Assembly (NCBI GenBank): GCA_964016885.1
Contig: OZ024747.1
Coordinates: 32,364,001 to 32,428,000, forward strand
Length of the DNA: 64,000 bases
From: Eledone cirrhosa
Taxonomy: Eukaryota
Direction of reading: 5' to 3'
Position 1 is the stretch's first letter; each line of letters opens with the position of its first letter. A program made the position numbers and the translations under genes. Below are positions 30,001-64,000 of the stretch, piece by piece. The notes below the pieces were generated by a model, which saw nothing but the letters and a program-made list of their open reading frames with translations, had not been told where the DNA came from and ran no database searches.

Positions 30001-31386
30001 TATAATGTCTCAGACAGGGACCAGTGGCCAGTGGTCAACAGACAGACCATCCAGAAGGTGGGTGACAGGCAGATGAAATATAATGTCTCAGACAGTTGCC
30101 AGTGGTCAACAGATAGACCATCCAGAAGGTGGGTGACAGGAAGATGAAATATAATGTCTCAGACAGGGACCAGTGGCCATTGGTCAATAGAGAGACCATC
30201 CAGAAGGTGGGTGACCGGCAGATGAAATATAATGTCTCAGACAGTTGCCAGTGGTCAACAGATAGACCATCCAGAAGGTGGGTGACAGGCAGATGAAATA
30301 TAATGTCTCAGACAGGGACAAGTGGCCAGTAGTCAACAGACAGACCATCCAGAAGGTGGGTGACAGGCAGATGAAATATAATGTCTCAGACAGGGACCAG
30401 TGGCCATTGGTCAATAGAGAGACCATCCAGAAGGTGGGTGACAGGCAGATGAAATATAATGTCTCAGACAGTTGCCAGTGGTCAACAGATAGACCATCCA
30501 GAAGGTGGGTGACAGGAAGATGAAATATATTGTCTCAGACAGGGACCAGTGGCCAGTGGTCAATAGAGAGACCATCGATAATGAGAGTGACAGGCTGATG
30601 AAATATAATGTCTCAGACAGGGACAAGTGGCCAGTGGTCAACAGAGAGACCATCCAGAAGGTGGGTGTCAGGCAGATGAAATATAATGTCTCAGACAGGG
30701 ACCAGTAGCCAGTGGTCAATAGAGAGACCATCCAGAAGGTGGGTGACATGCAGATGAAATATAATGTCTCAGACAGCGACCAGTGGCCACTGGTCAACAG
30801 AGAGACCATCCAGAAGGAGGGTGACAGGCAGAGGAAATATAATGTCTCAGACAGGGACCATTGGCCAGTGGTCAGCAGACAGACCATCCAGAATGTGGGT
30901 GACAGGCAGATGAAATATAATGTCTCAGACAGGGACCAGTGGCCAGTGGTCAATAGAGAGACCATCAAGAATGAGAGTGACAGGCTGATGAAATATAATG
31001 TCTCAGACAGGGACCAGTGGCCAGTGGTCAACAGAGAGACCATCCAGAAGGTGGGTGTCAGGCAGATGAAATATAATGTCTCAGACAGGGACCAGTAGCC
31101 AGTGGTCAATAGAGAGACCATCCAGAAGGTGGGTGACAGGCAGATGAAATATAATGTCTCAGACGGCAACCAGTGGCCACTGGTCAACAGAGAGACCATC
31201 TAGAAGGTGGGTGACAGGCAGATGAAATATAATGTCTCAGACAGGGACCAGTGGCCAGTGATCAACAGAGAGACCATCCAGAAGGTGGGTGACAGGTAGA
31301 TGAAATATAATGTCTCAGACAGGGTCCAGTGGCCAGTGGTCAACAGAGAGACCATCCAGAAAGTGGGTGACAGGTAGATGAAATAT
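1..31386. repeat. 78-bp tandem satellite array (~400 monomers, runs off the window start)
   Basis: Consensus tgtctcagacagggaccagtggccagtggtcaacagagagaccatccagaaggtgggtgacaggcagatgaaatataa repeats head-to-tail with recurrent variants (75, 81, 77 and 71 bp units). It ends abruptly at ...gtagatgaaatata, ~31386. All ORF-track entries here are 26-aa periodic translations of the monomer. Confidence 0.98.
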
Positions 31387-31816
31387 AGAAAAGATTGAAA
31401 GAGCAGGAGGACTAGGAGAAGTGTGTTGGTGCATAAATGTGACTGGAAGAAGGAAATAAAGCTGATGTACAAGACAAGTTTTCACATCTTCACACTCCTC
31501 AGCTATCAAACCAGTAACATGGTTATGTGCAATTTAATTCAGAGTAATATTTTAAAATGCTGGATTGTGCAACAGAAAAATATATCTCTATGCTGGTATA
31601 GTGTGTGTGTGACAGAACAAACCACACAGATAGAAGGATGAAAGAAGACAAAGAAAATAATGGGATAGTGAACCTCAAGCTGAGGGGTCTGTCCTAAATA
31701 GAAAGCTAATCATAGCTATGATAAAATTGTCTCTGAGATGAAGCGAGTGTATTTGAATAGATATAAAACTGAGACAACTCATCACTAGAACATTAAAACA
31801 GCCAAATGCTGTCAAA

Positions 31817-39570: not shown

Positions 39571-39869
39571 CAACCTTTTCCTAGTAAAAAATACATACTG
39601 TACTCTATATGTTAATGTGTACAGCTAATGTTTCATAGTTTTATGTTTAATTATTCATAGAACACACACTCGCATGCATGTGTGTGTGTGTGTGTGTGTG
39701 TGAATGTGTGTGTATACACACAAACAAACATGCTTATTATTATTATTATTATTATCGTCCCCTGATATCAAGCGAATGACAACAACCTGAGGTCAACTCA
39801 TACTCAAAATACTTTGGTTGTTTTTTCTGAGATAGCAATACACATCCTACAAATAAAATTATTGTACAA

Positions 39870-41006
39870 CAAGCCATGTATAGGGGAGCAGTCAGCAAAG
39901 TTAGGATTGGCAATGAGTATAGCGAGGAATTTAGCGTACAGGTTGGGGTCCACCAGGGCTCTGTTCTTAGCCCTCTCCTGTTCATCATAGTCCTGCAGGC
40001 AATAACGGAGGAGTTTAAGACCGGATGCCCATGGGAACTCCTGTATGCTGATGACCTCGCACTCATAGCTGAATCTATGGTAGAACTAGAGAATAAATTC
40101 CAAACCTGGAAGCAGGGACTAGAGAGAAAGGGCCTCAAAGTCAACATGACAAAGACTAAGGTCCTTATAAGTAGACGAGAAAACAGAACCCAGATCCCCT
40201 CAGGGAAATGGCCTTGCTCAGTATGTAGGAAAGGTGTAGGTAGGAACTCCATTCTTTGCCCCAAATGCAAACAATGGGTACACAAGAGATGTAGCGGGAT
40301 CTCAGGAAGCTTAATTAAGAATGTAGGATTCACATGCAGCAGCTGTGCTGAAACAGCAAGCAAACAGCCACAGGAAACAAGTACCACCAATCTCTGGGAG
40401 GGCCCTGTAGAAACAGTAGACAGCTTCTGCTACCTAGGTGACCGAATTAGCAACGGAGGTGGGTGCTCAGAAAGTACAATAACTAGGGTAAGAACGGGAT
40501 GGAAGAAGTTTAGGGAACTACTACCACTGCTAGCTGCAAAAGGCTTCTCCCTCAGAATGAAAGGCAGACTGTATGATGCGTGTATCCGAACAGCGATGTT
40601 GCATGGTAGTGAGACCTGGGCGCTGAAGGTGGAAGACTTACGTAGATTAGAGAGAAACGAAGCCTGCATGCTCCGATGGATGTGTAACAGTAATATACGT
40701 GAACGACAAAGCATAAATGAATTGAGAGAGAGACTGAGCATAAGAGGAATCAAATGCTGCGTGCAGGAGAGGCGGTTACGCTGGTATGGACATGTGATGC
40801 GTATGAAGGATGACAGCTGCATAAAAAGGTGCAGAGCACTAGAAGTTGATGGAAACCGCGGAGTGGGGAGACCCAAGATGACTTGGGATGAGGTGATAAA
40901 AGCCGACCTTACCCAACTACACCTCTCAAAGTCAATGACACACGACCGTGACTTCTGGCGTCACGCAGTAATACAGGGTACCCGACCTCCCATGGGTACA
41001 TGCTGA
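39870..41006 (+). mobile_element. 5'-truncated RTE-clade LINE; uninterrupted 376-aa C-terminal RT ORF with an internal C4HC3 (PHD-like) finger
   Basis: GVHQGSVLSPLLF, LLYADDL, GLKVNMTKTK, FCYLGD, LHGSETW, RRLRWYGHVMR, GRPKMTWDE, DRDFW motifs. Insert CSVC...CPKC...HKRC...CSSC. Confidence 0.93.
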
Positions 41007-43959: not shown

Positions 43960-44755
43960 AACTATAAATTTAATAGCTTTTGACAGTCAGACTATGACAA
44001 TATCGAATCTTTGAGCAAAAAAGTGATCCAAAAAATAGGGGGAAGATGGATGATATTAAAATATGGAAATTCATGGAAATAATTATTGATAAAGAAAAAC
44101 TATTGTTTTTGGACATCATAAAATTATGTAATATTTTAACATTTATTTGAACATCGCATACCATAGGGCTCATTCCTTACTGCCTAGCAATAAGAATATG
44201 CACAACAGTGATTGATACAGAACTATGGAAAATTTATAGTCTTAGTACTCATAGACAAAACATTAAGTTAATATTAAACTTATTTGCCACATTAAGCCAA
44301 ATTTCTCAATCCTGTTCAAAAGCACACAAAAATAAATCCTCAATAATCAACAGCAAACACGACCAAAATAACTTTGGAAATCATCTCAAAATTTACATTA
44401 GTAAATAATTCCAAATTATCTGTCAAAACATATATATATATAGCAGGTATGAGAAGAGATATACAGTAGCAACATCTTTAACTATTTAGAAACAGGAAGT
44501 GTAATATATGGTATAATCTGTCTTGGTTGCAGAAAGAATTACAACAGAGAGACTGGAAATATGTTATGTTGAGGAATCAAAATAAACAAGCAAAAAATAC
44601 AGAAACTGGAACTAAACAAAGTCCTAAATCAGTATTTAGAGATTTGTGGGAACATCAAAATCAAAACAAATTTCCTTTTCAAGACATGATCTGAAGTACT
44701 AAAAAGAAATGGAAAAGTATTTCAAAAAGAAATTCACTGCAAAAATGAACCATGA
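43960..44755 (+). pseudogene. Heavily decayed Penelope-like element (RT core to GIY-YIG endonuclease)
   Basis: Piecewise translations: MDDIKIWKFMEIIIDKEKLLFLDI (YxDD...FTME...LPFLD), IPYCLAIRICTTVID, SVIYGIICLGCRKNYNRETG (GIY-YIG: VIY...C..C..YIGETG), EMEKYFKKKFTAKMN (E..FI..F.P.LN). Confidence 0.65.
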
Positions 44756-44759
44756 AAGC

Positions 44760-44853
44760 CAGGGCTGGATTTATCTGGGACCCCTTATCAAACAGGACCC
44801 ACCAAATCTGAACTGTTCTAGAGCATCCCTGCCCGGTCTAAATCTGATCCATG
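44760..44853. mobile_element. Possible decayed hAT-type MITE
   Basis: Imperfect terminal inverted repeats cagggctggattta ... taaatctgatccatg. Confidence 0.3.
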
Positions 44854-44948
44854 TAAAGCTCCATGTAGAGACATGCATATATATAAGCAAAATTTAATAC
44901 TTCTTCAAGGGATAAACATTTTATTATTTCTACTAACAATGATACTTT

Positions 44949-45193
44949 ATCATCATTTTACGTCCGCTTTTCCCTGCTTGCAAGGGTGGGACGAGAACTA
45001 ATTCTGGCTTGATTTCTACAGCTGGATGCCCTTCCTAACACCAACCTCATTTACAGTGAGTGCTGGGTGCTTTTTTGCCGTGGCACCTCCACGACCACCT
45101 TGCAGTGGAATGATAGGGACCTCAGTCCCTATCATCTCATTTCTACAGCTGAGTAAACTGGAGCAATGTGAAATAAAGTGTCTTGCTCAAGGA
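44949..45193 (-). mobile_element. SINE (5'-truncated) with CORE/V-like body and RTE-type (gat)n tail
   Basis: Minus strand: tccttgagcaagacacttt...ctccagtttactcagctgtagaaatgag...ttaggaagggcatccagctgtagaaa...cggacgtaaaatgatgat. Internal perfect 11-bp hairpin at 45110-45135. Confidence 0.8.
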
Positions 45194-45240
<47 letters not shown>

Positions 45241-45530
45241 CAATTAATGTTGCGAAACAACAACAAGTTGTCTGGGTGATTGGTAGTTTCTACAATTCCG
45301 GTTTGTATTTATTTTCTTAATTTTTTCTTAAATTGAGACAAGCGAACCCAATTGGCTAGAGTCAGTATTCTTTTCACCTTAGCGAATAAGGTCCCTTACG
45401 ACTTGAACACATATATCTATATATCTGGTTCGCTTCTCTTTTATATTCTATTATAATATACGGCTCAGAAATATCTCTTTCTTACAGCTATTATAGTAAG
45501 AGACTATTTTGAGTTCCTAACTCAATATAT

Positions 45531-45600
<70 letters not shown>

Positions 45601-45723
45601 GGAGGTGAGTTTTATTGTAGTACAATAAAGCAATGCAGATATCGGATAAGAAGCACTCTACAGTTTGTAGGACTGGAGTATACATAATATATATGATCAA
45701 AAGATGGTTAAATGAGTTCCATG

Positions 45724-45794
45724 TATTTTATTATGCGCATTTCAAAAACAAATATCATCATGCAATAACATTTGTGTTTTCATCAGATAAAATA
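45724..45794 (-). ncRNA. Minimal type-I hammerhead ribozyme (left arm copy)
   Basis: Reverse complement of 48053-48123, identical core. Confidence 0.85.
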
Positions 45795-46149
45795 GGAGGA
45801 CATGATATGAAGGTTAAAAACACTTGTGCAGTTTTAAATCAACATATGAAAAGTTGTTTTAAATTGATGTGTGATATTGGGGGAAAAAAAAATGTTGAGG
45901 GGGGGGGGGGTGGAAAGGATGAAAAAGAAGAGGAGATGAGAGTAGAAAGTGGAAGAGGAGGAGTATAATGAGGAAGGATGAGATAGGAGGAGAGATGGAT
46001 GATAGAGAGAGAGAGATAGCTTTTATAACTGAGAAAAATATATTGTTTTACATAGAGAGGTTGAAAAACCGGTGGAAGATAATGTATAAATTAAAAGAAT
46101 TTGAAAATTAACGAAGAGAAAAATAATGTAAAGTTAAGGTTTGTATATT

Positions 46150-46318
46150 GAAGGGTTTAATAATATGTGCGATGAAAAGAAATTGTTAATATGTATTAAG
46201 AATAATATTTAAGGGTTTAATAATATGTGCGATGGAAAGAAAATGTTAATATGTATTAAGAATAATTTTAAGGGTTTAATAATATGTGCGATGGAAAGAA
46301 AATGTTGATATGTATTAT
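46150..46318. repeat. 3 x ~59-60-bp tandem repeat inside the palindrome arm (mirrored at ~47525-47695)
   Basis: aagggtttaataatatgtgcgatg(a/g)aaagaaa(t/a)tgttaatatgtattaagaataat repeated three times. Confidence 0.9.
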
Positions 46319-46727
46319 TAAAAAAACAGAGGTAATGTAAGTAAGGATATATTGTGAGATGAGCATGAATAAGTTAGATGAAAGTGAGAAAAAATAATGA
46401 ATAGAGGATGAATAATCTAACGTCAAAAAATGTTTATGTTTACGAAAGATTTTTTCAAGGTGATATAAAGTAAGAATATAGTGTATTGTGTAATAATTGT
46501 TTCTATGTTAGGCACAGTGAGAAAAGGTACAGATTAGGGGTTAGAAATTAAAAGAAAAGGAAAAGAAAAGGAAAAGGAAGAAAGGGAAGTGATGAATAGG
46601 AATGATATAGAATATGATAAATAACTTTGAAATAAGGTAGAAAGATGGGTATATTTTTAAAGAAGTATATATATATATATATATGTGCCTTTGAGAAAAG
46701 GATTCTAAATTGATAAAGTTTAGGATA

Positions 46728-47044
46728 TTAGCTGTATACTTTATGGAAAGTTCTGTGGAATTTATGCAAGCAGATAGAAAACAAGTCAGTGCGTCTGTTT
46801 ATTATAGAATCTAAATTAGATATAATGGTAAATTTTTCATTCAGACAGAGATTGCAAGTCTTGGATAGAGAACTGTTCAAGCAGAGGAAACCTTTTTCCA
46901 AGAGATGTTATATTTAATATTTTTGTCTTTCAAGGACCATATGAGTTCTGAGAGAGTCATGTTGGTTCTTTTAAGTTTATATTTAAAAGACGAATGATGA
47001 TTATAAAGACGAGCTTTAAAGGAGGTGGAAGTGTAGCCAAAATA
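46728..47044 (-). pseudogene. PLE GIY-YIG endonuclease C-terminal fragment (not in ORF track)
   Basis: YFGYTSTSFKARLYNHHSSFKYKLKRTNMTLSELIWSLKDKNIKYNISWKKVSSA* then, after a frameshift, SKTCNLCLNEKFTIISNLDSIINRRTDLFSICLHKFHRTFHKVYS*. Matches the PLE pattern YIG.T...FK.R..NH..SF...LS..IW.LK...I.W...C.LCL.EK..I...LN.R.E....C.H. Confidence 0.88.
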
Positions 47045-47130
47045 ATGCTTGCATAAATTCCACAGAACTTTCCATAAAGTATACAGCTAATATCCTAAAC
47101 TTTATCAATTCAGAATCCTTTTCTCAAAGG

Positions 47131-47179
<49 letters not shown>

Positions 47180-48052
47180 TTCTTTAAAAATATACCCATC
47201 TTTCTACCTTATTTCAAAGTTATTTATCATATTCTATATCATTCCTATTCATCACTTCCCTTTCTTCCTTTTCCTTTTCTTTTCTTTTTCTTTTAATTTC
47301 TAACCCCTAATCTGTACCTTTTCTCACTGTGTCTAACATAGAAACAATTATTACACAATACACTATATTCTTACTTTATATCACCTTGAAAAAATCCTTC
47401 GTAAACATAAAGATTTTTTGACGTTAGATTATTCATTCTCTATTCATTATTTTTTTCTCACTTTCATCTAACTTATTCATGCTCATCTCACAATATATCC
47501 TTACTTACATTACTTCTGTTTTTTTAATAATACATATCAACATTTTCTTTCCATCGCACATATTATTAAACCCTTAAAATTATTCTTAATACATATTAAC
47601 ATTTTCTTTCCATCGCACATATTATTAAACCCTTAAATATTATTCTTAATACATATTAACAATTTCTTTTCATCGCACATATTATTAAACCCTTCAATAT
47701 ACAAACCTTAACTTTACATTATTTTTCTCTTCGTTAATTTTCAACTTCTTTTAATTTATACATTATCTTCCAACGGTTTTTCAACCTCTCTATGTAAAAC
47801 AATATATTTTTCTCAGTTATAAAAGCTATCTCTCTCTCTCTATCATCCATCTCTCCTCCTATCTCATCCTTCCTCATTATACTCCTCCCCTTCCACTTTT
47901 TACTCTCATCTCCTCCTCTTTTTCATCCTTTCCACCCCGCCCTCAACATGTTTTTCCCCCCAATATCACACATCAATTTAAAACAACTTTTCATATGTTG
48001 ATTTAAAACTGCACTATCCACAAGTGTTTTTAACCTTCATATCATGTCCTCC

Positions 48053-48123
48053 TATTTTATCTGATGAAAACACAAATGTTATTGCATGATGATATTTGTT
48101 TTTGAAATGCGCATAATAAAATA
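48053..48123 (+). ncRNA. Minimal type-I hammerhead ribozyme (right arm copy)
   Basis: Stem I tattttat/ataaaata (8 bp), CTGATGA, stem II aaacacaaatgtta/tgatatttgtttt, GAAA, self-complementary stem III tgcgca, cleavage triplet aUA. Confidence 0.85.
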
Positions 48124-48151
48124 CATGGAACTCATTTAACCATCTTTTGAT

Positions 48152-48219
<68 letters not shown>

Positions 48220-48821
48220 AAAGTAAGTCCATAGAATCATTTGATAAAATATATACAGTAATTCTTCTCCCAATCAGCATAATCAACCACATAAAAAATC
48301 AATTAAACGAGGCTATAAGTTTAAAATGTACCTATGAAGAAACAATAGATAAATAAATGATAGCTATTTTATCCGCGAGCCACAGCCACAGAAGATTTAC
48401 CTAGTATTTCTAATAGCCTGTAGAAATTGACTAGACATATAGGTAACCATACATAATTAGGTACAAAATCAAAGTTAGAAGAAAAAATGGACATAAACAT
48501 ACCAAAAACATGTTTCTACCCCCGAGGGTTTCATTCGCTTTTTGGAAATATCCGATGGTGGATAAATCAACGAGTTTCTAAATCATCAGGAAACAAACTC
48601 AATTGGACGTAGATTTTCCTTAAATGATCCCCGCCAGAAACTAATTCAAAATGGCTAAGAATTGTCACATGGCCAGTGGTCAAGTCAGAAAGCTTGTGAT
48701 TGGTACCTGACGGCGAGTAGGCTGGTTGCTAGAAAGTGCAGCCGAATACTGCCTAAAGTTTTACTCAACCTTACGGGAGTATATAAAATATATAGGTTTA
48801 CATATACATAAACTAGACAGA

Positions 48822-48878
<57 letters not shown>

Positions 48879-48944
48879 CGTTATTGCGGGTTGAGTCGGG
48901 GGTAACCACAGTAAGTAAGGTACTCAATACATTGCAGAGTATAA

Positions 48945-49074
48945 AAGTTTTAATATAGATGAGATTCTACGGGACTAGAACTGTTTCATTCTTTAGAAAT
49001 CATCAGGAATCCCTGATGATTTCTAAAGAATGAAACAGTTCTAGTCCTGTAGAATCTCATCTATATTAAAACTT
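48945..49074. ncRNA. 130-bp palindrome of two back-to-back hammerhead motifs
   Basis: 63-bp arms (1 mismatch) and a 4-nt loop. Each strand reads c-CTGATGA-tttct-aa-agaa-t-GAAAC-agttcta-GTC outward from the centre. Confidence 0.8.
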
Positions 49075-49173
49075 ATATATTATATATATATATATATATA
49101 AATGTTTTTGGCAACCATTCACGGTGTGGCTCAATGACGAATTAATATTAATTAAATAATCAACAATCAGAGC

Positions 49174-49247
<74 letters not shown>

Positions 49248-49415
49248 GGAAACATTTGAACAGGAACAAAACAGAGAGGCAGTACAACGAATGTTTATTA
49301 ATTTCACGCTATATATATATATATAGTAATATTAATAAATGTGAAGACTAAAATCCAAAGAGGGTTCGATAAGGATAAATATATCAAATATATAAGAACC
49401 CTAGAGCAAATATTT

Positions 49416-49523
49416 ATTAAAATAAAATATTAAAGTTTAACCAAAGAATCGCTGCTTTCACCCTTAAAGGGGTCTTCATGAAAGCACCGATTCTTTGCTT
49501 AAACTTTAATCTGCTATTTTAAT
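49416..49523. ncRNA. Palindrome with hammerhead motif on the minus strand
   Basis: Arms attaaagtttaaccaaagaatcgctgctttca / tgaaagcaccgattctttgcttaaactttaat. Minus strand reads (a)TGAAGA-cccc-tttaa-ggg-t-GAAAG-cagcgattc. Confidence 0.6.
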
Positions 49524-49527
49524 ACAT

Positions 49528-49615
<88 letters not shown>

Positions 49616-49644
49616 TAAATATATATATATGTATTAAATATTTA

Positions 49645-49680
<36 letters not shown>

Positions 49681-50244
49681 TAGCAGCCATACCCAGCGTT
49701 GCCCGGGTAAGTCTACCATTAGTAAATAATTTTTTAAAAGAGAAAACAACGTAGCACGAACCCCAAAAAACCCACTTATTTTTAACCATAAGAAATGTGT
49801 TGTTCGATGTAAAAACGGTAAAATGTTAGGGCATATGAAAGGTGAATGAGTGTAAAAGTGTGATGTTGACGCTGGAAGCTCCAAACGCGAACTATGCCAC
49901 AAGGAAGTCAGCAGCCCAAAAGTGAGTCACATGGAATTTATGACAATAATGTGGGATGTTTGGCAATTCAGGGACTGAAGTCGTTGCGAGATGACGGAGA
50001 TAATGTATGACGACTTTGAGTGAAAGGTACAAATGATGGGTGTGCCATACGTTTGCTACAGTAGAAACATGTACATTTTTCGTTATGCATTGCTATATGT
50101 AGGCATTCTAATGATTTATGTAGTTTGAAATGCTTACCATTCTGTATAGTTGTGGCTGCCAATAGAAACTCTGACCTTGCTTTCCTTAGACTGATTGCAG
50201 TGACATAGACCAAACATGAAGGACGCTTAAAATTCCTCAACACA

Positions 50245-50900
50245 AATTCTGCACCAACCTCGATTGCAAAAGTAACAGAGAATAACGAATAGCGATTATT
50301 ACGCCAAAAGAAAAATGCTGAAGCAACTTCTATTGCACGAGATGCAGAAAACGAAACACAACGTTCGATGCGACAGCAAATAAATGCTGAGGCAACTGCT
50401 GCTGCTTGAGGTGTAGAAAACGAATCTCAACCCTCACTGCGACAGAAAGCAAATATTGAGGCAACGTCTATTGCAGGAGATGCAGAGAATGAACCACAGC
50501 GTTCATTACTTTTGCATAGAAATGCTGAGGTAACTTCTGTAGCTCGAGCTGCATCAACCGAAACAAAGCGTCAACTGAGGCAGCAAAGAAATAGGAGTCA
50601 ACTTCCGCAGCTCGAGCTGCATCAACCGAAACACAGCGTCAACTGCGGCAGCAAAGAACTGTGAGTCAACGTCTGCTGTTTGAGCTGTATCAACCGAAAC
50701 ACGGCGTCAACTGCGGCAGCAAAGACATGTGAATCAACGTCTGCTGGACGCGCTGGCCAATCCATGGAAAACAGGCTCAACCAACCAGAGGGGAACGTGC
50801 ATTTCAATACCGTGCATCCCAAAGTGGTCACAACGTTTACAGTCGAAAATGTATGGTGTTATGAATTTCCAAAAGGCAGTATGTCTACAATTTGGTAATT
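50245..50900 (+). pseudogene. 69-bp (23-aa) coding-type repeats, Helitron Rep N-terminus-like, opposite in orientation to the helicase
   Basis: Units start at 50314, 50383, 50452 and 50521 (exact 69-bp spacing). They translate as NAEATSIARDAENETQRSMRQQI / NAEVTSVARAASTETKRQLRQQR, with stops and -1 indels in later units. Confidence 0.6.
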
Positions 50901-50955
50901 ATTGAAAGCGGCGAGGTATTTGATTGTTAGAAGACGGTTTGTGTCGCAGTGTTGA

Positions 50956-52193
50956 TTACAGAACTTCTTGGTACAAAATGTTTGTGGTTTTACCGTTTAG
51001 AGCAAATGCATAAAGGTTTCTTTTGCTTCCCACTCTGGAATATTCAACGTATAGCTGACCGTGCGAAAAGCATGGCTCTTCTAGGTTTATTCTAGCGACG
51101 GACAATGTTTTCCCCTGAGACTTATCGTCATAGCGAAATTACAACGAACTGGAAACTGGAGCCTCCTAAATGAAAAGGGGATCTCTGATGTTGACGGACA
51201 AAGAGGAATCCTTGGGATAAAAACATTTTCCCCCTTTCCACATCCCGAGAGAATCGTCACCTCAATCAAGTTTTGCGTTAGTTTATTTACTGTAAGGCGG
51301 GCGCCGTTGCAGAGTTTTGGTGGGTGTAGATTTCTCAAAAGCATAATTGAGCATCCTTGCTTAAGTTCCAATCGATGAGATGGCAACCCGGAGGGGTTCA
51401 ATGAGTTAAGAAACTCAATTGGGTAGTTAATGGGGTCTGTGACTGTATCGATGGACTTGTATATACACGAAGCTGTAGGAAGAGACTTAAGCAGTTGTCC
51501 GTTGATTTTGTCGACAATCTCATTTTTCGGAGCCAGTATTGCCTTTTCGCACAGCCAGTTTGGATTTTGGTAGTTAGCGCTCAACTCAGGGAATACTGCA
51601 TCAGCCAAGTCGTCAGCACTGTTGACTAAAGTGCAGACCGGTTCGAGGGAGATTTTTTCCTCTTCATCAAGTGGCACTTTGCCGTTACCAAGTGTCAATA
51701 GGTTGGTAGCAAAATCTGATGACACTTGGTCACCAAGCGTCCGAGCTCTCATGTTCGTAGAGAGCGTTAATGTTGTGACATAACGCCAAAGCGGAGATGA
51801 CTTTAAGCATGCTCAAATAGCATCAGCCCTTGTTCCTTTGGGAATAACATGGACGGTTTGTCTAAAATCTCCGGATAAAAGGACAGTCACGCCTCCCATG
51901 GGATCCTGGGAGTCTCTTATGTCTCTTAACGTCCGGTCCAGTGTCTCCAAAGCTCCTTCATGAGCCATGGTACATTCGTCCCAAACTATAAGTTCTGCCT
52001 TTTCTGATCCTTTGGTAATATTACAGCAGGGTGTGTCATTTGGTGTCATATTGAGGGGGAGTTTGAAGGCTGAATGTGCTGTCCTTCCCCCAGGGAGCAA
52101 GGTTGCTGCAATACTGGAAGACGCAACTGCAAGTGCTATGTGTCTGTGTTGTCGAACCTTCGCAAGGAGAAGCCGTGTGACAAAAGTCTTCCC
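50956..52193 (-). pseudogene. Helitron PIF1-family (SF1B) helicase domain, one in-frame stop and one frameshift
   Basis: GKTF (Walker A, cut by a (CA)n tract), AVASSSIAATLLPGGRTAHSAFKLPL, IVWDECTM, GDFRQT, AI*ACLKSS, NMR, AILAPKN, IMLLRNL...LCNG, FIPRI, RLQFPV..FAMTI / KSQGKTL...FSHGQLYV..SRV...NILYQEVL*. Confidence 0.93.
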
Positions 52194-56625: not shown

Positions 56626-59600
56626 GTATTACTGTAGAAAATATATAGTATAGTATTACTGTTGAAAATATATAGTATAGTATTACTGTTGGAAATATAT
56701 AGTATAGTATTACTGTTGGAAATATATAGTACAGTAATACTGTTGGAAATATATAGTACAGTATTACTGTTGAAAATAGATAGTATAGTATTACTGTTAA
56801 AAATATATAGTATAGTATTACTGTTGAAAATATATAGTATAGTATAGTATTATGGTTGAAAATATATAGTACAGTATTACAGTTGAAAATATATAGTATA
56901 GTGTAACTGTTGAAAATATATAGTATAGTATTACTGTTGAAAACATAGTATAGTATTAGTGTTGGAAATATATAATATAGTATTACTGTTGAAAATATAT
57001 AGTATAGTATTACTGTTGGAAATATATAGTATAGTATTACTGTTGAAAATATATAGTACAGTATTACTGTTGAAAATATATGGTATAGTATTACTGTTGA
57101 AAACATAGTATAGTATTACTATTGAAAATATATAGTACAGTATTACTGTTGAAAAATATATAATATAGTATTACTGTTGGAAATATATAGTATAGTATTA
57201 CTGTTGAAAATATATAGTACAGTATTAGTGTTGAAAATATATAGTACAGTATTACTGTTGAAAATATATAGTACAGTATTACTGTTGAAAATATATAGTA
57301 CAGTATTACTGTTGAAAATATATAGTATAGTATTACTGCTGAAAATATATAGTATAGTATAGTATTACTGTTGGAAATATATAGTATAGTATTACTGTTG
57401 GAAATATATATTACAGTATTACTGTTGAAAATATATAGTATAGTATTACTGTTGAAAATATATAGTATAGTATTACTGTTGAAAATATATAGTATAGTAT
57501 TACTGTTGAAAACATATAGTATAGTATTACTGTTGAAAATATATAGTATAGTATTACTGTTGAAAATATATAGTATAGTATTACTGTTGGAAATATATAG
57601 TATAATATTACTGTTGGAAATATATAGTACAGTATTACTGTTGGAAATATATAGTACAGTATTACTGTTGAAAATATATAGTATAGTATTACTGTTGAAA
57701 ATATATAGTATAGTATTACTGTTGAAAATATATAGTATAGTATTACTGTTGAAAATATATAGTATAGTATTACTGTTGAAAATATATAGTATAGTATTAC
57801 TGTTGAAAATATATAGTATAGTATAGAATTATGGTTGAAAATATATAGTACAGTATTACTGTTGAAAATATATAGTATAGTGTAACTGTTGAAAATATAT
57901 AGTATAGTATTACTGTTGAAAACATAGTATAGTATTACTGTTGGAAATATATAGTATTACTGTTGAAAATATATGCTATAGTATTACTGTTGAAAATATA
58001 TATTATAGTATATTACTACTGTTGAAAATATAAAGTATAGTATTACAGTTGAAAGTATATAGTATAGTATTACTGTTGAAAATATATAGTATAGTATAGT
58101 ATTATCGTTGAAAATATATAGTACAGTATTACTGTTGAAAATATATAGTATAGTATTACTGTTGAAAATATATAGTATAGTATTACTGTTGGAAATATAT
58201 AGTACAGTATTACTGTTGAAAATATATAGTATAGTATTACTGTTGGAAATATATATTACAGTATTACTGTTGAAAATATATAGTATAGTATTACTGTTGA
58301 AAATATATAGTATAGTATTACTGTTGAAAATATATAGTATAGTATTACTGTTGAAAACATATAGTATAGTATTACTGTTGAAAATATATAGTATAGTATT
58401 ACTGTTGAAAATATATAGTATAGTATTACTGTTGAAGACATAGTATAGTATTACTGTTGGAAATATATAGTATTACTGTTAAAAATATATGCTATAGTAT
58501 TACTGTTGAATATATATAGTATAGTATTACTGTTGGAAATATATAGTATAGTATTACTGTTTAAAATATATAGTACAGTATTACTGTTGAAAATATATGG
58601 TGTAGTATTACTGTTGAAAACATAGTATAGTATTACTGTTCAAAATATACAGTACAGTATTACCGTTGAAAATATATAGTATAGTATTACTGTTGAAAAC
58701 ATAATATAGTATTACTGTTGAAAATATATAGTACAGTATTACTGTTGAAAACATATAGTATAGTATTACTGTTAAAAATATATAGTATAGTATTACTGTT
58801 GAAAATATATAGTATAGTACTACTGTTGAAAATATATAGTATAGTATAGTACAACTGTTGAAAATATATAGTATAGTATTACAGTTGAAAGTATATAGTA
58901 TAGTATTACTGTTGAAAATATATAGTATAGTATAGTATTATCGTTGAAAATATATAGTACAGTATTACTGTTGAAAATATATAGTATAGTATTACTGTTG
59001 AAAATATATAGTATAGTATTACTGTTGGAAATATATAGTACAGTATTACTGTTGAAAATATATAGTATAGTATTACTGTTGGAAATATATATTACAGTAT
59101 TACTGTTGAAAATATATAGTATAGTATTACTGTTGAAAATATATAGTATAGTATTACTGGTGAAAATATATAGTATAGTATTACTGTTGAAAACATATAG
59201 TATAGTATTACTGTTGAAAATATATAGTATAGTATTACTGTTGAAAATATATAGTATAGTATTACTGTTGGAAATATATAGTAAAGTATTACTGTTGGAA
59301 ATATATAGTACAGTATTACTGTTGGAAATATATAGTACAGTATTACTGTTGAAAATATATAGTATAGTATTACTGTTGAAAATATATAGTATAGTATTAC
59401 TGTTGAAAATATATAGTATAGAATTACTGTTGAAAATATATAGTATAGTATTACTGTTGAAAATATATAGTATAGTATTACTGTTGGAAATATATAGTAT
59501 AGTATTACTGTTGGAAATATGTAGTACAGTATTACTGTTGGAAATATATAGTACAGTATTACTGTTGAAAATATATAGTATAGTATTACTGTTGAAAATA

Positions 59601-62600
59601 TATAGTATAGTATTACTGCTGAAAATATATAGTATAGTATTACTGTTGAAAATATATAGTATAGTATAGTATTATGGTTGAAAATATATAGTACAGTATT
59701 ACTGTTGAAAATATATAGTATAGTATTACTGTTGAAAACATAGTATAGTATTACTGTTGGAAATATATAGTATTACTGTTGAAAATATATGCTATAGTAT
59801 TACTGTTGAAAATATATAGTATAGTATTACTGTTGGAAATATATAGTATAGTATTACTGTTTAAAATATATAGTACAGTATTACTGTTGAAAATATATGG
59901 TGTAGTATTACTGTTGAAAACATAGTATAGTATTACTGTTCAAAATATACAGTACAGTTTTACCGTTGAAAATATATAGTATAGTATTACTGTTGAAAAC
60001 ATAATATAGTATTACTGTTGAAAATATATAGTACAGTATTACTGTTGAAAACATATAGTATAGTATTACTGTTAAAAATATATAGTATAGTATTACTGTT
60101 GAAAATATATAGTATAGTACTACTGTTGAAAATATATAGTATAGTATAGTACTACTGTTGAAAATATATAGTATAGTATTACAGTTGAAAGTATATAGTA
60201 TAGTATTACTGTTGAAAATATATAGTATAGTATAGTATTATCGTTGAAAATATATAGTACAGTACTACTGTTGAAAATATATAGTATAGTATTACTGTTG
60301 TAAATATATAGTATAGTATTACTGTTGGAAATATATAGTACAGTATTACTGTTGAAAATATATAGTATAGTATTACTGTTGGAAATATATATTACAGTAT
60401 TACTGTTGAAAATATATAGTATAGTATTACTGTTGAAAATATATAGTATAGTATTACTGTTGAAAATATATAGTATAGTATTACTGTTGAAATCATATAG
60501 TATAGTATTACTGTTGAAAATATATAGTATAGTATTACTGTTGAAAATATATAGTATAGTATTACTGTTGGAAATATATAGTAAAGTATTACTGTTGGAA
60601 ATATATAGTACACTATTACTGTTGGAAATATATAGTACAGTATTACTGTTGAAAATATATAGTATAGTATTACTGTTGAAAATATATAGTATAGTATTAC
60701 TGTTGAAAATATATAGTATAGTATTACTGTTGAAAATATATAGTATAGTATTACTGTTGAAAATATATAGTATAGTATAGTATTATGGTTGAAAATATAT
60801 AGTACAGTATTACTGTTGAAAATATATAGTATAGTGTAACTGTTGAAAATATATAGTATAGTATTACTGTTGAAAACATAGTATAGTATTACTGTTGGAA
60901 ATATATGCTATAGTATTACTGTTGAAAATATATAGTATAGTATTACTGTTGGAAATATATAGTATAGTATTACTGTTTAAAATATATAGTACAGTATTAC
61001 TGTTGAAAATATATGGTGTAGTATTACTGTTGAAAACATAGTATAGTATTACTGTTCAAAATATACAGTACAGTATTACCGTTGAAAATATAGAGTATAG
61101 TATTACTGTTGAAAACATAATATAGTATTACTGTTGAAAATATATAGTACAGTATTACTGTTGAAAACATATAGTATAGTATTACTGTTAAAAATATATA
61201 GTATAGTATTACTGTTGAAAATATATAGTATAGTACTACTGTTGAAAATATATAGTATAGTATAGTACTACTGTTGAAAATATATAGTATAGTATTACAG
61301 TTGAAAGTATATAGTATAGTATTACTGTTGATAATATATAGTATAGTATAGTATTATGGTTGAAAATATATAGTACAGTATTACTGTTGAAAATATATAG
61401 TATAGTATTACTGTTGAAAATATATAGTATAGTATTACTGTTGGAAATATATAGTACAGTATTACTGTTGAAAATATATAGTATAGTATTACTGTTGAAA
61501 ATATATAGTACAGTATTACTGTTGGAAATATATAGTATTACTGTTGAAAACATATAGTATAGTATTACTGTTGAAAATATATAGTATAGTATTACTGTTG
61601 AAAATGTATAGTATAGTATTACTGTTGAAAATATATAGTATAGTATTACTATTGAAAATATATAGTACAGTATTACTGTTGAAAATATATAGTACAGTAT
61701 TACTGTTGGAAATATATAGTACAGTATTAATGTTGAAAATATATAGTATAGTATTACTGTTGAAAATATATAGTATAGTATTACTGTTGAAAATATATAG
61801 TATAGTATTACTATTGGAAATATATAGTACAGTATTACTGTTTGAAATATATAATACTGTATTGTTGTTGAAAATATATAGTATGGTATTACTGTTGAAA
61901 ATATATAGTATAGTATAGTATACGGTTGAAAATATATAGTACAGTATTACTGTTGAAAATATATAGTATAGTGTAACTGTTGAAAATATATAGTATAGTA
62001 TTACTGTTGAGAACATAGTATAGTATTACTGTTGAAAATATATAGTATAGTATTACTGTTGAAAATATATAGTATAGTATTACTGTCGAAAACATAATAT
62101 AGTATTACTGTTGAAAATATATAGTATAGTATTACTGTTGAAAAAAAAATATAGTATTACTGTTGAAAATATATAGTATAGTGTAACTGTTGAAAATATA
62201 TAGTATAGTATTACTGTTGAAAATATATAGTATAGTATTACTGTTGAAAATATATAGTATAGTATAGTATTATCGTTGAAAATATATAGTACAGTATTAC
62301 TGTTGAAAATATATAGTATATTATTACTGTTGAAAATATATAGTATAGTATTACTTGTGGAAATATATAGTACAGTATTACTGTTGAAAATATATAGTAT
62401 AGTATTACTGTTGGAAATATATATTACAGTATTACTGTTGAAAATATATAGTATAGTATTACTGTTGAAAATATATAATATAGTATTACTGTTGAAAATA
62501 TATAGTATAGTATTACTGTTGAAAACATATAGTATAGTATTACTGTTGAAAATATATAGTATAGTATTACTGTTGAAAATATATAGTATAGTATTACTGT

Positions 62601-64000
62601 TGGAAATATATAGTAAAGTGTTACTGTTGGAAATATATAGTACAGTATTACTGTTGGAAATATATAGTACAGTATTACTGTTGAAAATATATAGTATAGT
62701 ATTACTGTTGAAAAATATAGTATAGTATTACTGTTGAAAATATATAGTATAGTATTACTGTTGAAAATATATAGTATAGTATTACTGTTGAAAATATATA
62801 GTATAGTATTACTGTTGAAAATATATAGTATAGTATTACTGTTGGAAATATGTAGTATAGTATTACTGTTGGAAATATATAGTACAGTATTACTGTTGGA
62901 AATATATAGTACAGTATTACTGTTGAAAATATATAGTATAGTATTACTGTTGAAAATATATAGTATAGTATTACTGTTGAAAATATATAGTATAGTATTA
63001 CTGTTGAAAATATATAGTATAGTATTACTGTTGAAAATATATAGTATAGTATTACTGTTGAAAATATATAGTATAGTATAGTATTACTGTTGAAAACATA
63101 GTATAGTATTACTGTTGGAAATATATAGTATTACTGTTGAAAATATATGCTATAGTCTTACTGTTGAAAATATATAGTATAGTATTACTGTTGGAAATAT
63201 ATAGTATAGTATTACTGTTTAAAATATATAGTACAGTATTACTGTTGAAAATATATGGTGTAGTATTACTGTTGAAAACATAGTATAGTATTACTGTTCA
63301 AAATATACAGTACAGTATTACCATTGAAAATATATAGTATAGTATTACTGTTGAAAACATAATAGAGTATTACTGTTGAAAATATATAGTACAGTATTAC
63401 TGTTGAAAACATATAGTATAGTATTACTGTTAAAAATATATAGTATAGTATTACTGTTGAAAATATATAGTATAGTACTACTGTTCAAAATATACAGTAC
63501 AGTATTACCATTGAAAATATATAGTATAGTATTACTGTTGAAAATATATAGTATAGTATTACTGTTGGAAATATATAGTACAGTATTACTGTTGAAAATA
63601 TATAGTATAGTATTACTGTTGGAAATATATATTACAGTATTACTGTTGAAAATATATAGTATTGTATTACTGTTGAAAATATATAGTATAGTATTTCTGT
63701 TGAAAATATATAGTATAGTATTACTGTTGAAATCATATAGTATAGTATTACTGTTGAAAATATATAGTATAGTATTACTGTTGAAAATATATAGTATAGT
63801 ATTACTGTTGGAAATATATAGTAAAGTATTACTGTTGGAAATATATAGTACAGTATTACTGTTGGAAATATATAGTACAGTATTACTGTTGAAAATATAT
63901 AGTATAGTATTACTGTTGAAAATATATAGTATAGTATTACTGTTGAAAATATATAGTATAGTATTACTGTTGAAAATATATAGTATAGTATTACTGTTGA
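56626..64000. repeat. 27-bp AT-rich satellite (runs off the window end)
   Basis: Unit gtattactgttgaaaatatatagtata with 22, 25 and 32-bp variants. The LLLKIYSIV ORFs are its periodic translation. Confidence 0.98.

What the first reader, a model, noticed from the sequence alone, without database searches (positions are those of the whole stretch)
45695..48152. 2.46-kb palindrome with a Penelope endonuclease in its loop and a hammerhead ribozyme at each outer end
Seen: ~1.1-kb arms are near-perfect reverse complements, and the 273-bp loop hides a frameshifted GIY-YIG C-terminus that the ORF track misses. Each arm ends in an intact-looking type-I HHR (8-bp stem I, CUGAUGA, GAAA, palindromic stem III UGCGCA) about 30 nt before TA-rich sequence. 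Established: PLEs carry minimal HHRs in pseudo-LTRs, truncated copies can have inverted pLTRs, and minimal HHRs with palindromic stem III are thought to act as dimers. Inference: read-through from either direction would give a >1-kb hairpin RNA with a sense ribozyme at its 3' end, a candidate siRNA or ADAR substrate. The 3' region is also long and pyrimidine-rich, and contains an internal 60-bp repeat and a SINE-tail fragment (~46492-46517).
Basis: partly seen in the sequence, partly recalled or inferred. Interest (0 to 1): 0.75.

Follow-up and report, generated by a model that had tools for sequence, protein, structure and literature searches.

The report
Twin-primed Hydra-clade Penelope insertion
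This mirror-image stretch is one cut-short copy among thousands of a known kind of jumping gene (a Hydra-clade Penelope-like element), and the way such copies end suggests that both arms were likely written from one RNA, once from each cut strand of the target DNA.

Summary
The palindrome, the broken GIY-YIG C-terminus and both hammerhead (HHR) patterns are real. It is a 5'-truncated, head-to-head insertion of a Hydra-clade Penelope-like element (PLE) in (TA)n; a 28-nt HHR piece occurs 15,179 times in this genome, 56 of the first 100 in tail-out pairs. Across copies, one arm ends at site 1 and the other at site 2 (41 of 43 classifiable units; 42 of 48 in a second, overlapping list). Mate arms rarely differ at family-polymorphic sites (7 versus 125 in controls), and the site-1 arm usually reaches further (26 versus 7). 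Best reading: twin priming from both target strands at two start sites on one RNA (inferred). About 62% of arms stop at one base. The HHR cut site leaves almost no trace, and in a read-through hairpin the HHR would be paired away, so the siRNA/ADAR/ribozyme idea has no support. The shape is in print; I found the mechanism in no paper, but this scan reported it before on other DNA (23 findings, at least 11 genomes, this one included).

The parts
45525..45597 (.). (TA)n target array, left side
45598..45694 (-). 97-nt tail between end site 1 and end site 2, on the left arm only; in tandem copies it runs on into the 5' UTR and the ATG
45598..47044 (-). long arm: 5'-truncated element copy (endonuclease C-terminus, 3' UTR/pLTR, HHR, tail), unit positions r2154-3630 of the 3630-nt natural unit in L045
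45724..45794 (-). type I hammerhead pattern, left arm
46145..46317 (-). 60-bp repeat x2.9 in the 3' UTR (mirror copy 47528-47700)
46492..46517 (+). 26-nt stretch like another repeat of the window; family-wide (74 of 155 loci); SINE origin untested
46728..47044 (-). C-terminal part of the GIY-YIG endonuclease, frameshifted by a 10-nt deletion near 46878; stop codon 46728-46730
46773..47045 (.). 273-nt loop: the part of the long arm not matched by the short arm, plus one extra base (47045) at the junction; junction 22-mer is unique in the genome
47046..48158 (+). short arm: inverted 5'-truncated copy from unit position r2436, ending at site 1 without tail
47993..47993 (+). base (unit r3373) at which about 62% of family arms stop elsewhere in the genome; passed by both arms here (mirror 45847)
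48053..48123 (+). type I hammerhead pattern, right arm; predicted cut after 48115
48154..48217 (.). (TA)n target array, right side

Best explanation
This is a 5'-truncated head-to-head insertion of a Hydra-clade Penelope-like retrotransposon in a (TA)n array, and its two arms were likely made by twin priming on one RNA. Shown: family identity, thousands of copies, one arm ending at site 1 and the other at site 2, arms from one template lineage, unique junction. Inferred: the GIY-YIG domain cuts both strands of (TA)n; each 3'-OH primes reverse transcription of the same uncleaved RNA, one at site 1 (about 40 nt past the predicted HHR cut) and one at site 2 (about 95 nt further 3'); the site-2 enzyme trails, must displace the first cDNA and usually stops sooner; the two cDNA ends are joined with little homology. 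Here the site-2 arm went 273 nt further, which makes the loop. The copy has no RT and a broken endonuclease piece, so it is inert debris.
For: Intact sister ORFs of 794-797 aa with RT and C-terminal endonuclease; endonuclease model matches I-TevI, Z 9.0, rmsd 2.4, 94 aligned; Hydra motifs present (versus PMC8557442 section 11). End coupling: 41 site1/site2, 2 site2/site2, 0 site1/site1 among 43 classifiable of 73 clusters in 69 loci; 42 mixed of 48 tail-out neighbours in end-anchored lists (p 5e-8 against 0.5); site-1 and site-2 ends are about equally common, 9,709 and 11,114. One template: in 31 mate pairs 129 differences in 8,128 columns, 7 at family-polymorphic sites versus 125.5 for non-mates; shared rare alleles 12 versus 0.27. 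Site-1 arm further 5' in 26, equal in 8, site-2 arm further in 7 (p 0.0013); 11 of 40 site-2 arms stop at r3499-3600, in the tail or near site 1. In vitro, the anole PLE protein cuts and extends both strands, starts RT at two sites that define the tail, and is predicted a dimer (PMC11167929).
Against: No experiment on this family. Same-end units exist: 3 site1/site1 and 3 site2/site2 of 48, and L041 is site1/site1. 30 of 73 clusters could not be classed, many with no visible partner arm. Arm likeness could also come from later gene conversion, or from two RNAs of one source locus. 2 of the window's 7 unmasked arm differences fall on polymorphic sites; mates L068 and L041 are as divergent as non-mates. 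The strongest stop (r3373) is the 5' base of a predicted hairpin (z -2.1), which also suits snap-back. PMC11167929 found no difference in start site between strands in bulk and did not test coupling.
Confidence: 0.62

Rival explanations
1. Snap-back: one cDNA starts at site 2, folds back on itself and is copied towards site 1, whose TA-like end anneals to the other target strand.
For: Explains same-template arms and a one-sided tail when the tailed arm is the longer, as in this window. Short palindromic centres and 14-15-nt overlaps occur at the r3373 hairpin.
Against: It needs the tailed arm to reach at least as far 5' as the other; the opposite holds in 26 of 33 unequal units. A cDNA started at site 1 holds no tail to copy. 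The window's junction has one extra base and no overlap.
Confidence: 0.1
2. Self-priming on, or template switch to, an antisense RNA of the same locus (proposed in PMC3846280), or endonuclease resolution of an intermediate that leaves the tail at one end (PMC8557442).
For: Published proposals. Allows either arm to be longer. Shared minority alleles show a sense T>C excess in the UTR (111 versus 17 A>G, allele counts not independent sites), which antisense A-to-I editing could give.
Against: Needs long antisense templates that end at fixed sense-defined sites; gives no reason for site-2 arms stopping near site 1. Singletons are strand-symmetric.
Confidence: 0.15
3. Two independent RNAs primed from the two target strands, with arms homogenised later by gene conversion.
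For: Both-strand priming as in PMC11167929; a minority of same-end units and two divergent mate pairs.
Against: Independent choice predicts about half mixed ends, not 42 of 48; mates differ at 1-1.5% by private changes yet rarely at polymorphic sites.
Confidence: 0.1
4. Assembly or library fold-back artefact.
For: No public contig spanned the junction, which is uninformative for a multi-copy family.
Against: Arms differ by 15 internal substitutions and indels, including a 7-nt deletion found in 0 of 155 other loci; the tail is one-sided; thousands of like units with different junctions.
Confidence: 0.02
5. A selected hairpin-RNA locus (siRNA or ADAR substrate with a terminal ribozyme).
For: A read-through RNA would fold into a >1-kb duplex (MFE -1804 kcal/mol).
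Against: Nothing marks this copy out; HHR fully paired away in that fold; arms decay by strand-symmetric private changes; no host ORF seen nearby.
Confidence: 0.03

Closest known systems
Hydra clade of C-terminal EN+ PLEs (Craig et al. 2021, PMC8557442; section 11 read whole, other passages seen)
   Same: Single ORF with RT and C-terminal GIY-YIG; DKT; CxCX5C linker; CxxC and CxH around the conserved E and N; HHR in the pLTR; (TA)n targets; aquatic-invertebrate-type relatives at 32-37% identity.
   Different: Unit 3.6 kb with a 1.1-kb 3' region, against <3 kb described; RW motif reads RWI here (RWK in relative P0002); very high copy number.
EN+ PLE insertions with inverted 5'-truncated pLTR and one-sided tail (PMC3846280 passages; PMC8557442 Fig. 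2 legend)
   Same: Head-to-head inverted truncated copy; tail at one end only.
   Different: Tail about 95 nt, not 30-40; no target-site duplication can be read inside (TA)n; coupling of the two ends is counted here.
Anole Poseidon PAc in vitro (Frangieh et al. 2024, PMC11167929; parts 1-2 of 4 read)
   Same: Two internal RT start sites bounding the tail; AT-rich target; uncleaved RNA as the template.
   Different: Other clade; the paper does not tie one site to each strand or explain inverted arms in the parts read.
Metazoan PLE hammerheads (Cervera and de la Pena 2014, PMC4209133; passages)
   Same: Type I, enlarged helix II, small palindromic helix III suited to dimers.
   Different: Helix II 15 pairs and helix I 8 pairs, against 7-8 and 4-5 for the minimal motifs described.
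LINE-1 twin priming (recalled, no call)
   Same: Both target strands prime on one RNA and give an inversion.
   Different: In L1 the second primer lands 5' of the first, giving inversion without duplication; here it would land 3', so the 3' end is duplicated and strand displacement is needed.

Membership tests
Hydra-clade PLE | Single ORF, RT plus C-terminal GIY-YIG endonuclease | tested here: met
   Sister ORFs 794-797 aa with YRDDG at 357; endonuclease model I-TevI Z 9.0, T4 EndoII Z 7.5; 19 of 88 aligned sequences hit Pfam GIY-YIG, the query itself does not. The window holds only the C-terminal piece.
Hydra-clade PLE | DKG changed to DKT | tested here: met
   SDKT at 122
Hydra-clade PLE | N-terminal RWK motif | tested here: inconclusive
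   RLRWI at 35; RWK in relative P0002
Hydra-clade PLE | CxCX5C linker; CxxC and CxH flanking E and N | tested here: met
   CxCX5C at 653, CxxC at 753, CxH at 781; C18, C24, C30, C116, C119, E122 near invariant in A1
Hydra-clade PLE | Absence of the CCHH motif of other EN+ PLEs | tested here: inconclusive
   Not aligned to non-Hydra endonucleases; no such set of conserved columns in A1 beyond those listed
Hydra-clade PLE | Insertion into (TA)n | tested here: met
   Window flanks and nearly all ends printed
Hydra-clade PLE | RT phylogeny within the Hydra clade | not tested
   No named reference set was available
PLE with inverted pLTR | Partial-tandem pLTR-ORF-pLTR copies in the family; inverted truncated copy; one-sided tail | tested here: met
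   Direct repeats about 3.6 kb apart in L034, L036, L045, L048; tail-out pairs
Type I hammerhead ribozyme | Core CUGANGA, GAAA, UH with stems I-III | tested here: met
   Both arms; core intact in 248 of 276 HHR-like segments, palindromic stem III in 213; no Rfam hit
Type I hammerhead ribozyme | Covariation of stems | tested here: inconclusive
   22 chosen variants: 97.9% cells paired, 10 pairs vary on one side only, none on both sides, not above shuffles
Type I hammerhead ribozyme | Self-cleavage | not testable with these tools
   Indirect only: 5.4% of arms lost across the cut site versus 4.4% in a control step
Non-LTR retrozyme | Non-coding tandem units each with an HHR | tested here: not met
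   Arms are inverted pieces of a coding element

The most novel reading that the evidence does not exclude
Penelope inverted pLTRs and the one-sided tail are the footprint of a two-enzyme race on one RNA: a leading RT from site 1 and a trailing, strand-displacing RT from site 2, each tied to one cut target strand. The commonest products (about 415-bp HHR palindromes, 62% of arms stopping at one base) are run-offs at the RNA's 5' end, and the ribozyme stays uncut during insertion. This genome holds thousands of independent read-outs of that reaction.
Probability: 0.55. Interest if true: 0.65.

Novelty: new member of a known kind. Interest (0 to 1): 0.42.

Why it matters
The locus itself is inert debris. 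The family matters as data: how PLEs make inverted pLTRs and tails is called open in PMC8557442 and only partly answered in PMC11167929. The end coupling, same-template arms and lead/trail asymmetry counted here give a specific, testable model. Thousands of perfect-arm palindromes could also be a large source of double-stranded RNA for the host, which was not testable here.

Tried and rejected
Rfam scan of 44000-50000: no hammerhead hit on either arm. Pfam: nothing meaningful on the intact ORFs, the loop peptide or 4 relatives; PDB sequence search with A1: nothing; Foldseek gave no E<=0.001 though its top 7 rows were GIY-YIG nucleases. No RNA holder listed. Contigs of 4 runs did not span the junction; no conclusion. 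One master palindrome copied as a unit: rejected, junctions differ among units and the window's is unique; the junction script failed on 8 of 42 loci and overstates gaps where copies differ from the reference, so no microhomology statistic is given. HHR cut recorded in insertions (lead from e1-8622537): at most about 1 point of excess loss (8,696 of 9,194 pass versus 8,814 of 9,218 control, p 0.0013; could be mutational). A>G changes shared by mates (lead from e1-10280452): 0 of 23 shared rare alleles. Hairpins behind the start sites (lead from e1-10310536): folds no better than shuffles, z -0.55 and +0.49; conservation across families not tested. Sense T>C excess: gone in singletons. [quoted passage not shown] Supplements of PMC8557442 (Hydra alignments, HHR list) were not opened and bear on the RWK and CCHH rows. 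The retrozyme preprint 10.64898/2026.07.22.740005 was read only in part 1 of 5.

Full report
Observation. The inverted repeat is real: arms 45687-46772 and 47046-48160 with 273 nt between; 1071 matches, 17 mismatches and 40 gap columns. (TA)n arrays flank it at 45525-45597 and 48154-48217. Each arm has a type I hammerhead pattern with an 8-bp stem I, a 15-pair stem II and a palindromic stem III; Rfam did not detect it. The loop is the minus-strand continuation of the left arm and matches the endonuclease end of an intact sister ORF, with a 10-nt deletion near 46878.

Identity. The window lies in a 3.0-Gb genome. Sister copies carry ORFs of 794-797 aa with DKT, YRDDG, CxCX5C, CxxC and CxH motifs, the marks given for the Hydra clade together with (TA)n targeting (PMC8557442 section 11); the RWK motif reads RWI. 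Pfam does not recognise the ORF. A model of the C-terminal domain (pLDDT 90.5) matches I-TevI at Z 9.0, rmsd 2.4, 94 residues, followed by T4 EndoII and UvrC. Tandem copies show the unit: ORF, 1.1-kb 3' region, HHR, site 1, tail, site 2, 80-nt leader, ATG; 3630 nt in L045.

How common. An exact 28-nt HHR piece occurs 15,179 times. Among the first 100 places listed I counted by hand 28 tail-out pairs within 6 kb and no tail-in pair. I fetched the surroundings of all 100 (plus L017 and L059). The window's junction occurs once in the genome, and junctions differ among units, so each palindrome is made at insertion.

End coupling. In 69 loci, 73 clusters held the anchor; 43 had both outer ends classed: 41 site1/site2, 2 site2/site2, 0 site1/site1; 30 were unclassed, some through script limits and many with no visible partner. 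A second, partly overlapping test used the listed site-1 ends (86 of 9,709, those up to 54.6 Mb of C1) and site-2 ends (100 of 11,114): of 48 tail-out neighbours within 6 kb, 42 were mixed, 3 site1/site1 and 3 site2/site2 (p 5e-8). Two of the site1/site1 cases are true short palindromes (L138, L139), so the rule has exceptions.

One template. Of 37 simple pairs among 158 arms kept (>=93% identity to the reference), 31 had at least 90 comparable columns: 129 differences in 8,128 columns, 7 of them at family-polymorphic sites against 125.5 for non-mates, and 12 shared rare alleles against 0.27. The window's arms differ at 7 of 614 unmasked columns, less than any of 126 control comparisons, with 2 at polymorphic sites, and share 3 rare alleles. 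L068 and L041 do not fit. Private differences are strand-symmetric, as for later mutation. Gene conversion is not excluded.

Lead and trail. Among 41 mixed units the site-1 arm reaches further 5' in 26, equally in 8, less far in 7 (p 0.0013); 11 of 40 single-segment site-2 arms stop at r3499-3600, in the tail or close to site 1. Snap-back of one cDNA cannot give a short tailed arm with a long tail-less arm. Two enzymes on one RNA can, the downstream one trailing. This fits the in vitro facts for the anole element: both strands cut and extended, two start sites bounding the tail, predicted dimer, uncleaved RNA used (PMC11167929). Published accounts describe the shape and propose antisense self-priming or endonuclease resolution (PMC3846280; PMC8557442). 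The window is one of the minority in which the tailed arm went further.

A fixed stop. 6,378 arms hold a 27-mer ending at unit r3373 and only 2,402 continue four more bases, so about 62% stop there; a control four-base step loses 4.4%. This yields many palindromes of about 415 bp with varied centres. It may be the RNA's 5' end, reached when RT starts at the 5' copy of the sites. Against a plain structural stall, 0 of 6 upstream pLTRs that reach this base stop there; against a plain start site, 0 of 13 upstream pLTRs begin there (read by hand). The base is also the foot of a predicted hairpin (z -2.1). Unresolved.

The ribozyme. The core is intact in 248 of 276 HHR-like segments; stem II keeps pairing through one-sided changes only. 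Across the predicted cut 8,696 of 9,194 arms continue, against 8,814 of 9,218 in the control, so templates were almost always uncut. Low activity of metazoan PLE hammerheads is known (PMC4209133). In the folded read-through RNA all 71 HHR bases pair with the opposite arm, so the 'hairpin with an active terminal ribozyme' is unlikely. No RNA data were available, and laid contigs did not span the junction.

Prior scan notes. I recorded the twin-priming reading before looking. The scan already holds it for 23 findings in at least 11 genomes, and holds Hydra-clade calls for this genome. These are unchecked notes, not support. Two of their claims did not hold for this family (cut-site stops, shared A>G changes); one was not borne out by folding energy (start-site hairpins).

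Verdict. A new family member of a known clade in a known arrangement; ordinary as a locus. The mechanism read from the copies is inferred, fairly well supported and directly testable. Interest 0.42.

Noticed in passing
window 48879-49072: A second, unrelated 194-nt palindrome in (TA)n: 68-nt arms (2 mismatches), CUGAUGA near the centre on both strands, and a 60-nt extension on the left arm only; weak Rfam RAGATH-1 hammerhead hit, E 2.6. Looks like a stub of another PLE family with the same one-sided tail.
   Followed up: partly
L047, L054, L058, L063, L085, L100, L124 and others: Many other hammerhead families lie near these insertions; their stem III is a different palindrome or near-palindrome (AUAUAUAU, AUAUGUAU, AUGUACAU) with unrelated stem II, which suggests selection for dimer pairing.
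   Followed up: no
family-wide, unit r3373 (window 47993): About 62% of arms stop at one base; RNA start or RT stop is unresolved.
   Followed up: partly
family-wide, 3' UTR and third codon positions: Shared minority alleles show sense T>C far above A>G (111 versus 17 in the UTR; counts not independent), absent in singletons. Could be G:U misreading by the RT or antisense editing in source lineages.
   Followed up: partly
L051 ORF residues about 560-650: Asparagine-rich linker between RT and endonuclease, longer than in relatives P0002-P0005; recalls the N-rich inserts of rotifer Penelope (PMC3846280).
   Followed up: no
window 39831-41004 (+): 391-codon frame with a YADD reverse-transcriptase motif, a non-LTR element fragment.
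   Followed up: no
window 49680-51812: 69-nt tandem repeats (50313-50746) and a minus-strand 241-codon frame resembling a Helitron/PIF1 helicase end (resemblance recalled).
   Followed up: no
window 1-31387 and 56626-64000: Satellite arrays (78-nt unit seen in 30093-31387, uniform composition back to base 1; 27-nt unit x272) bracket the repeat-rich middle.
   Followed up: no
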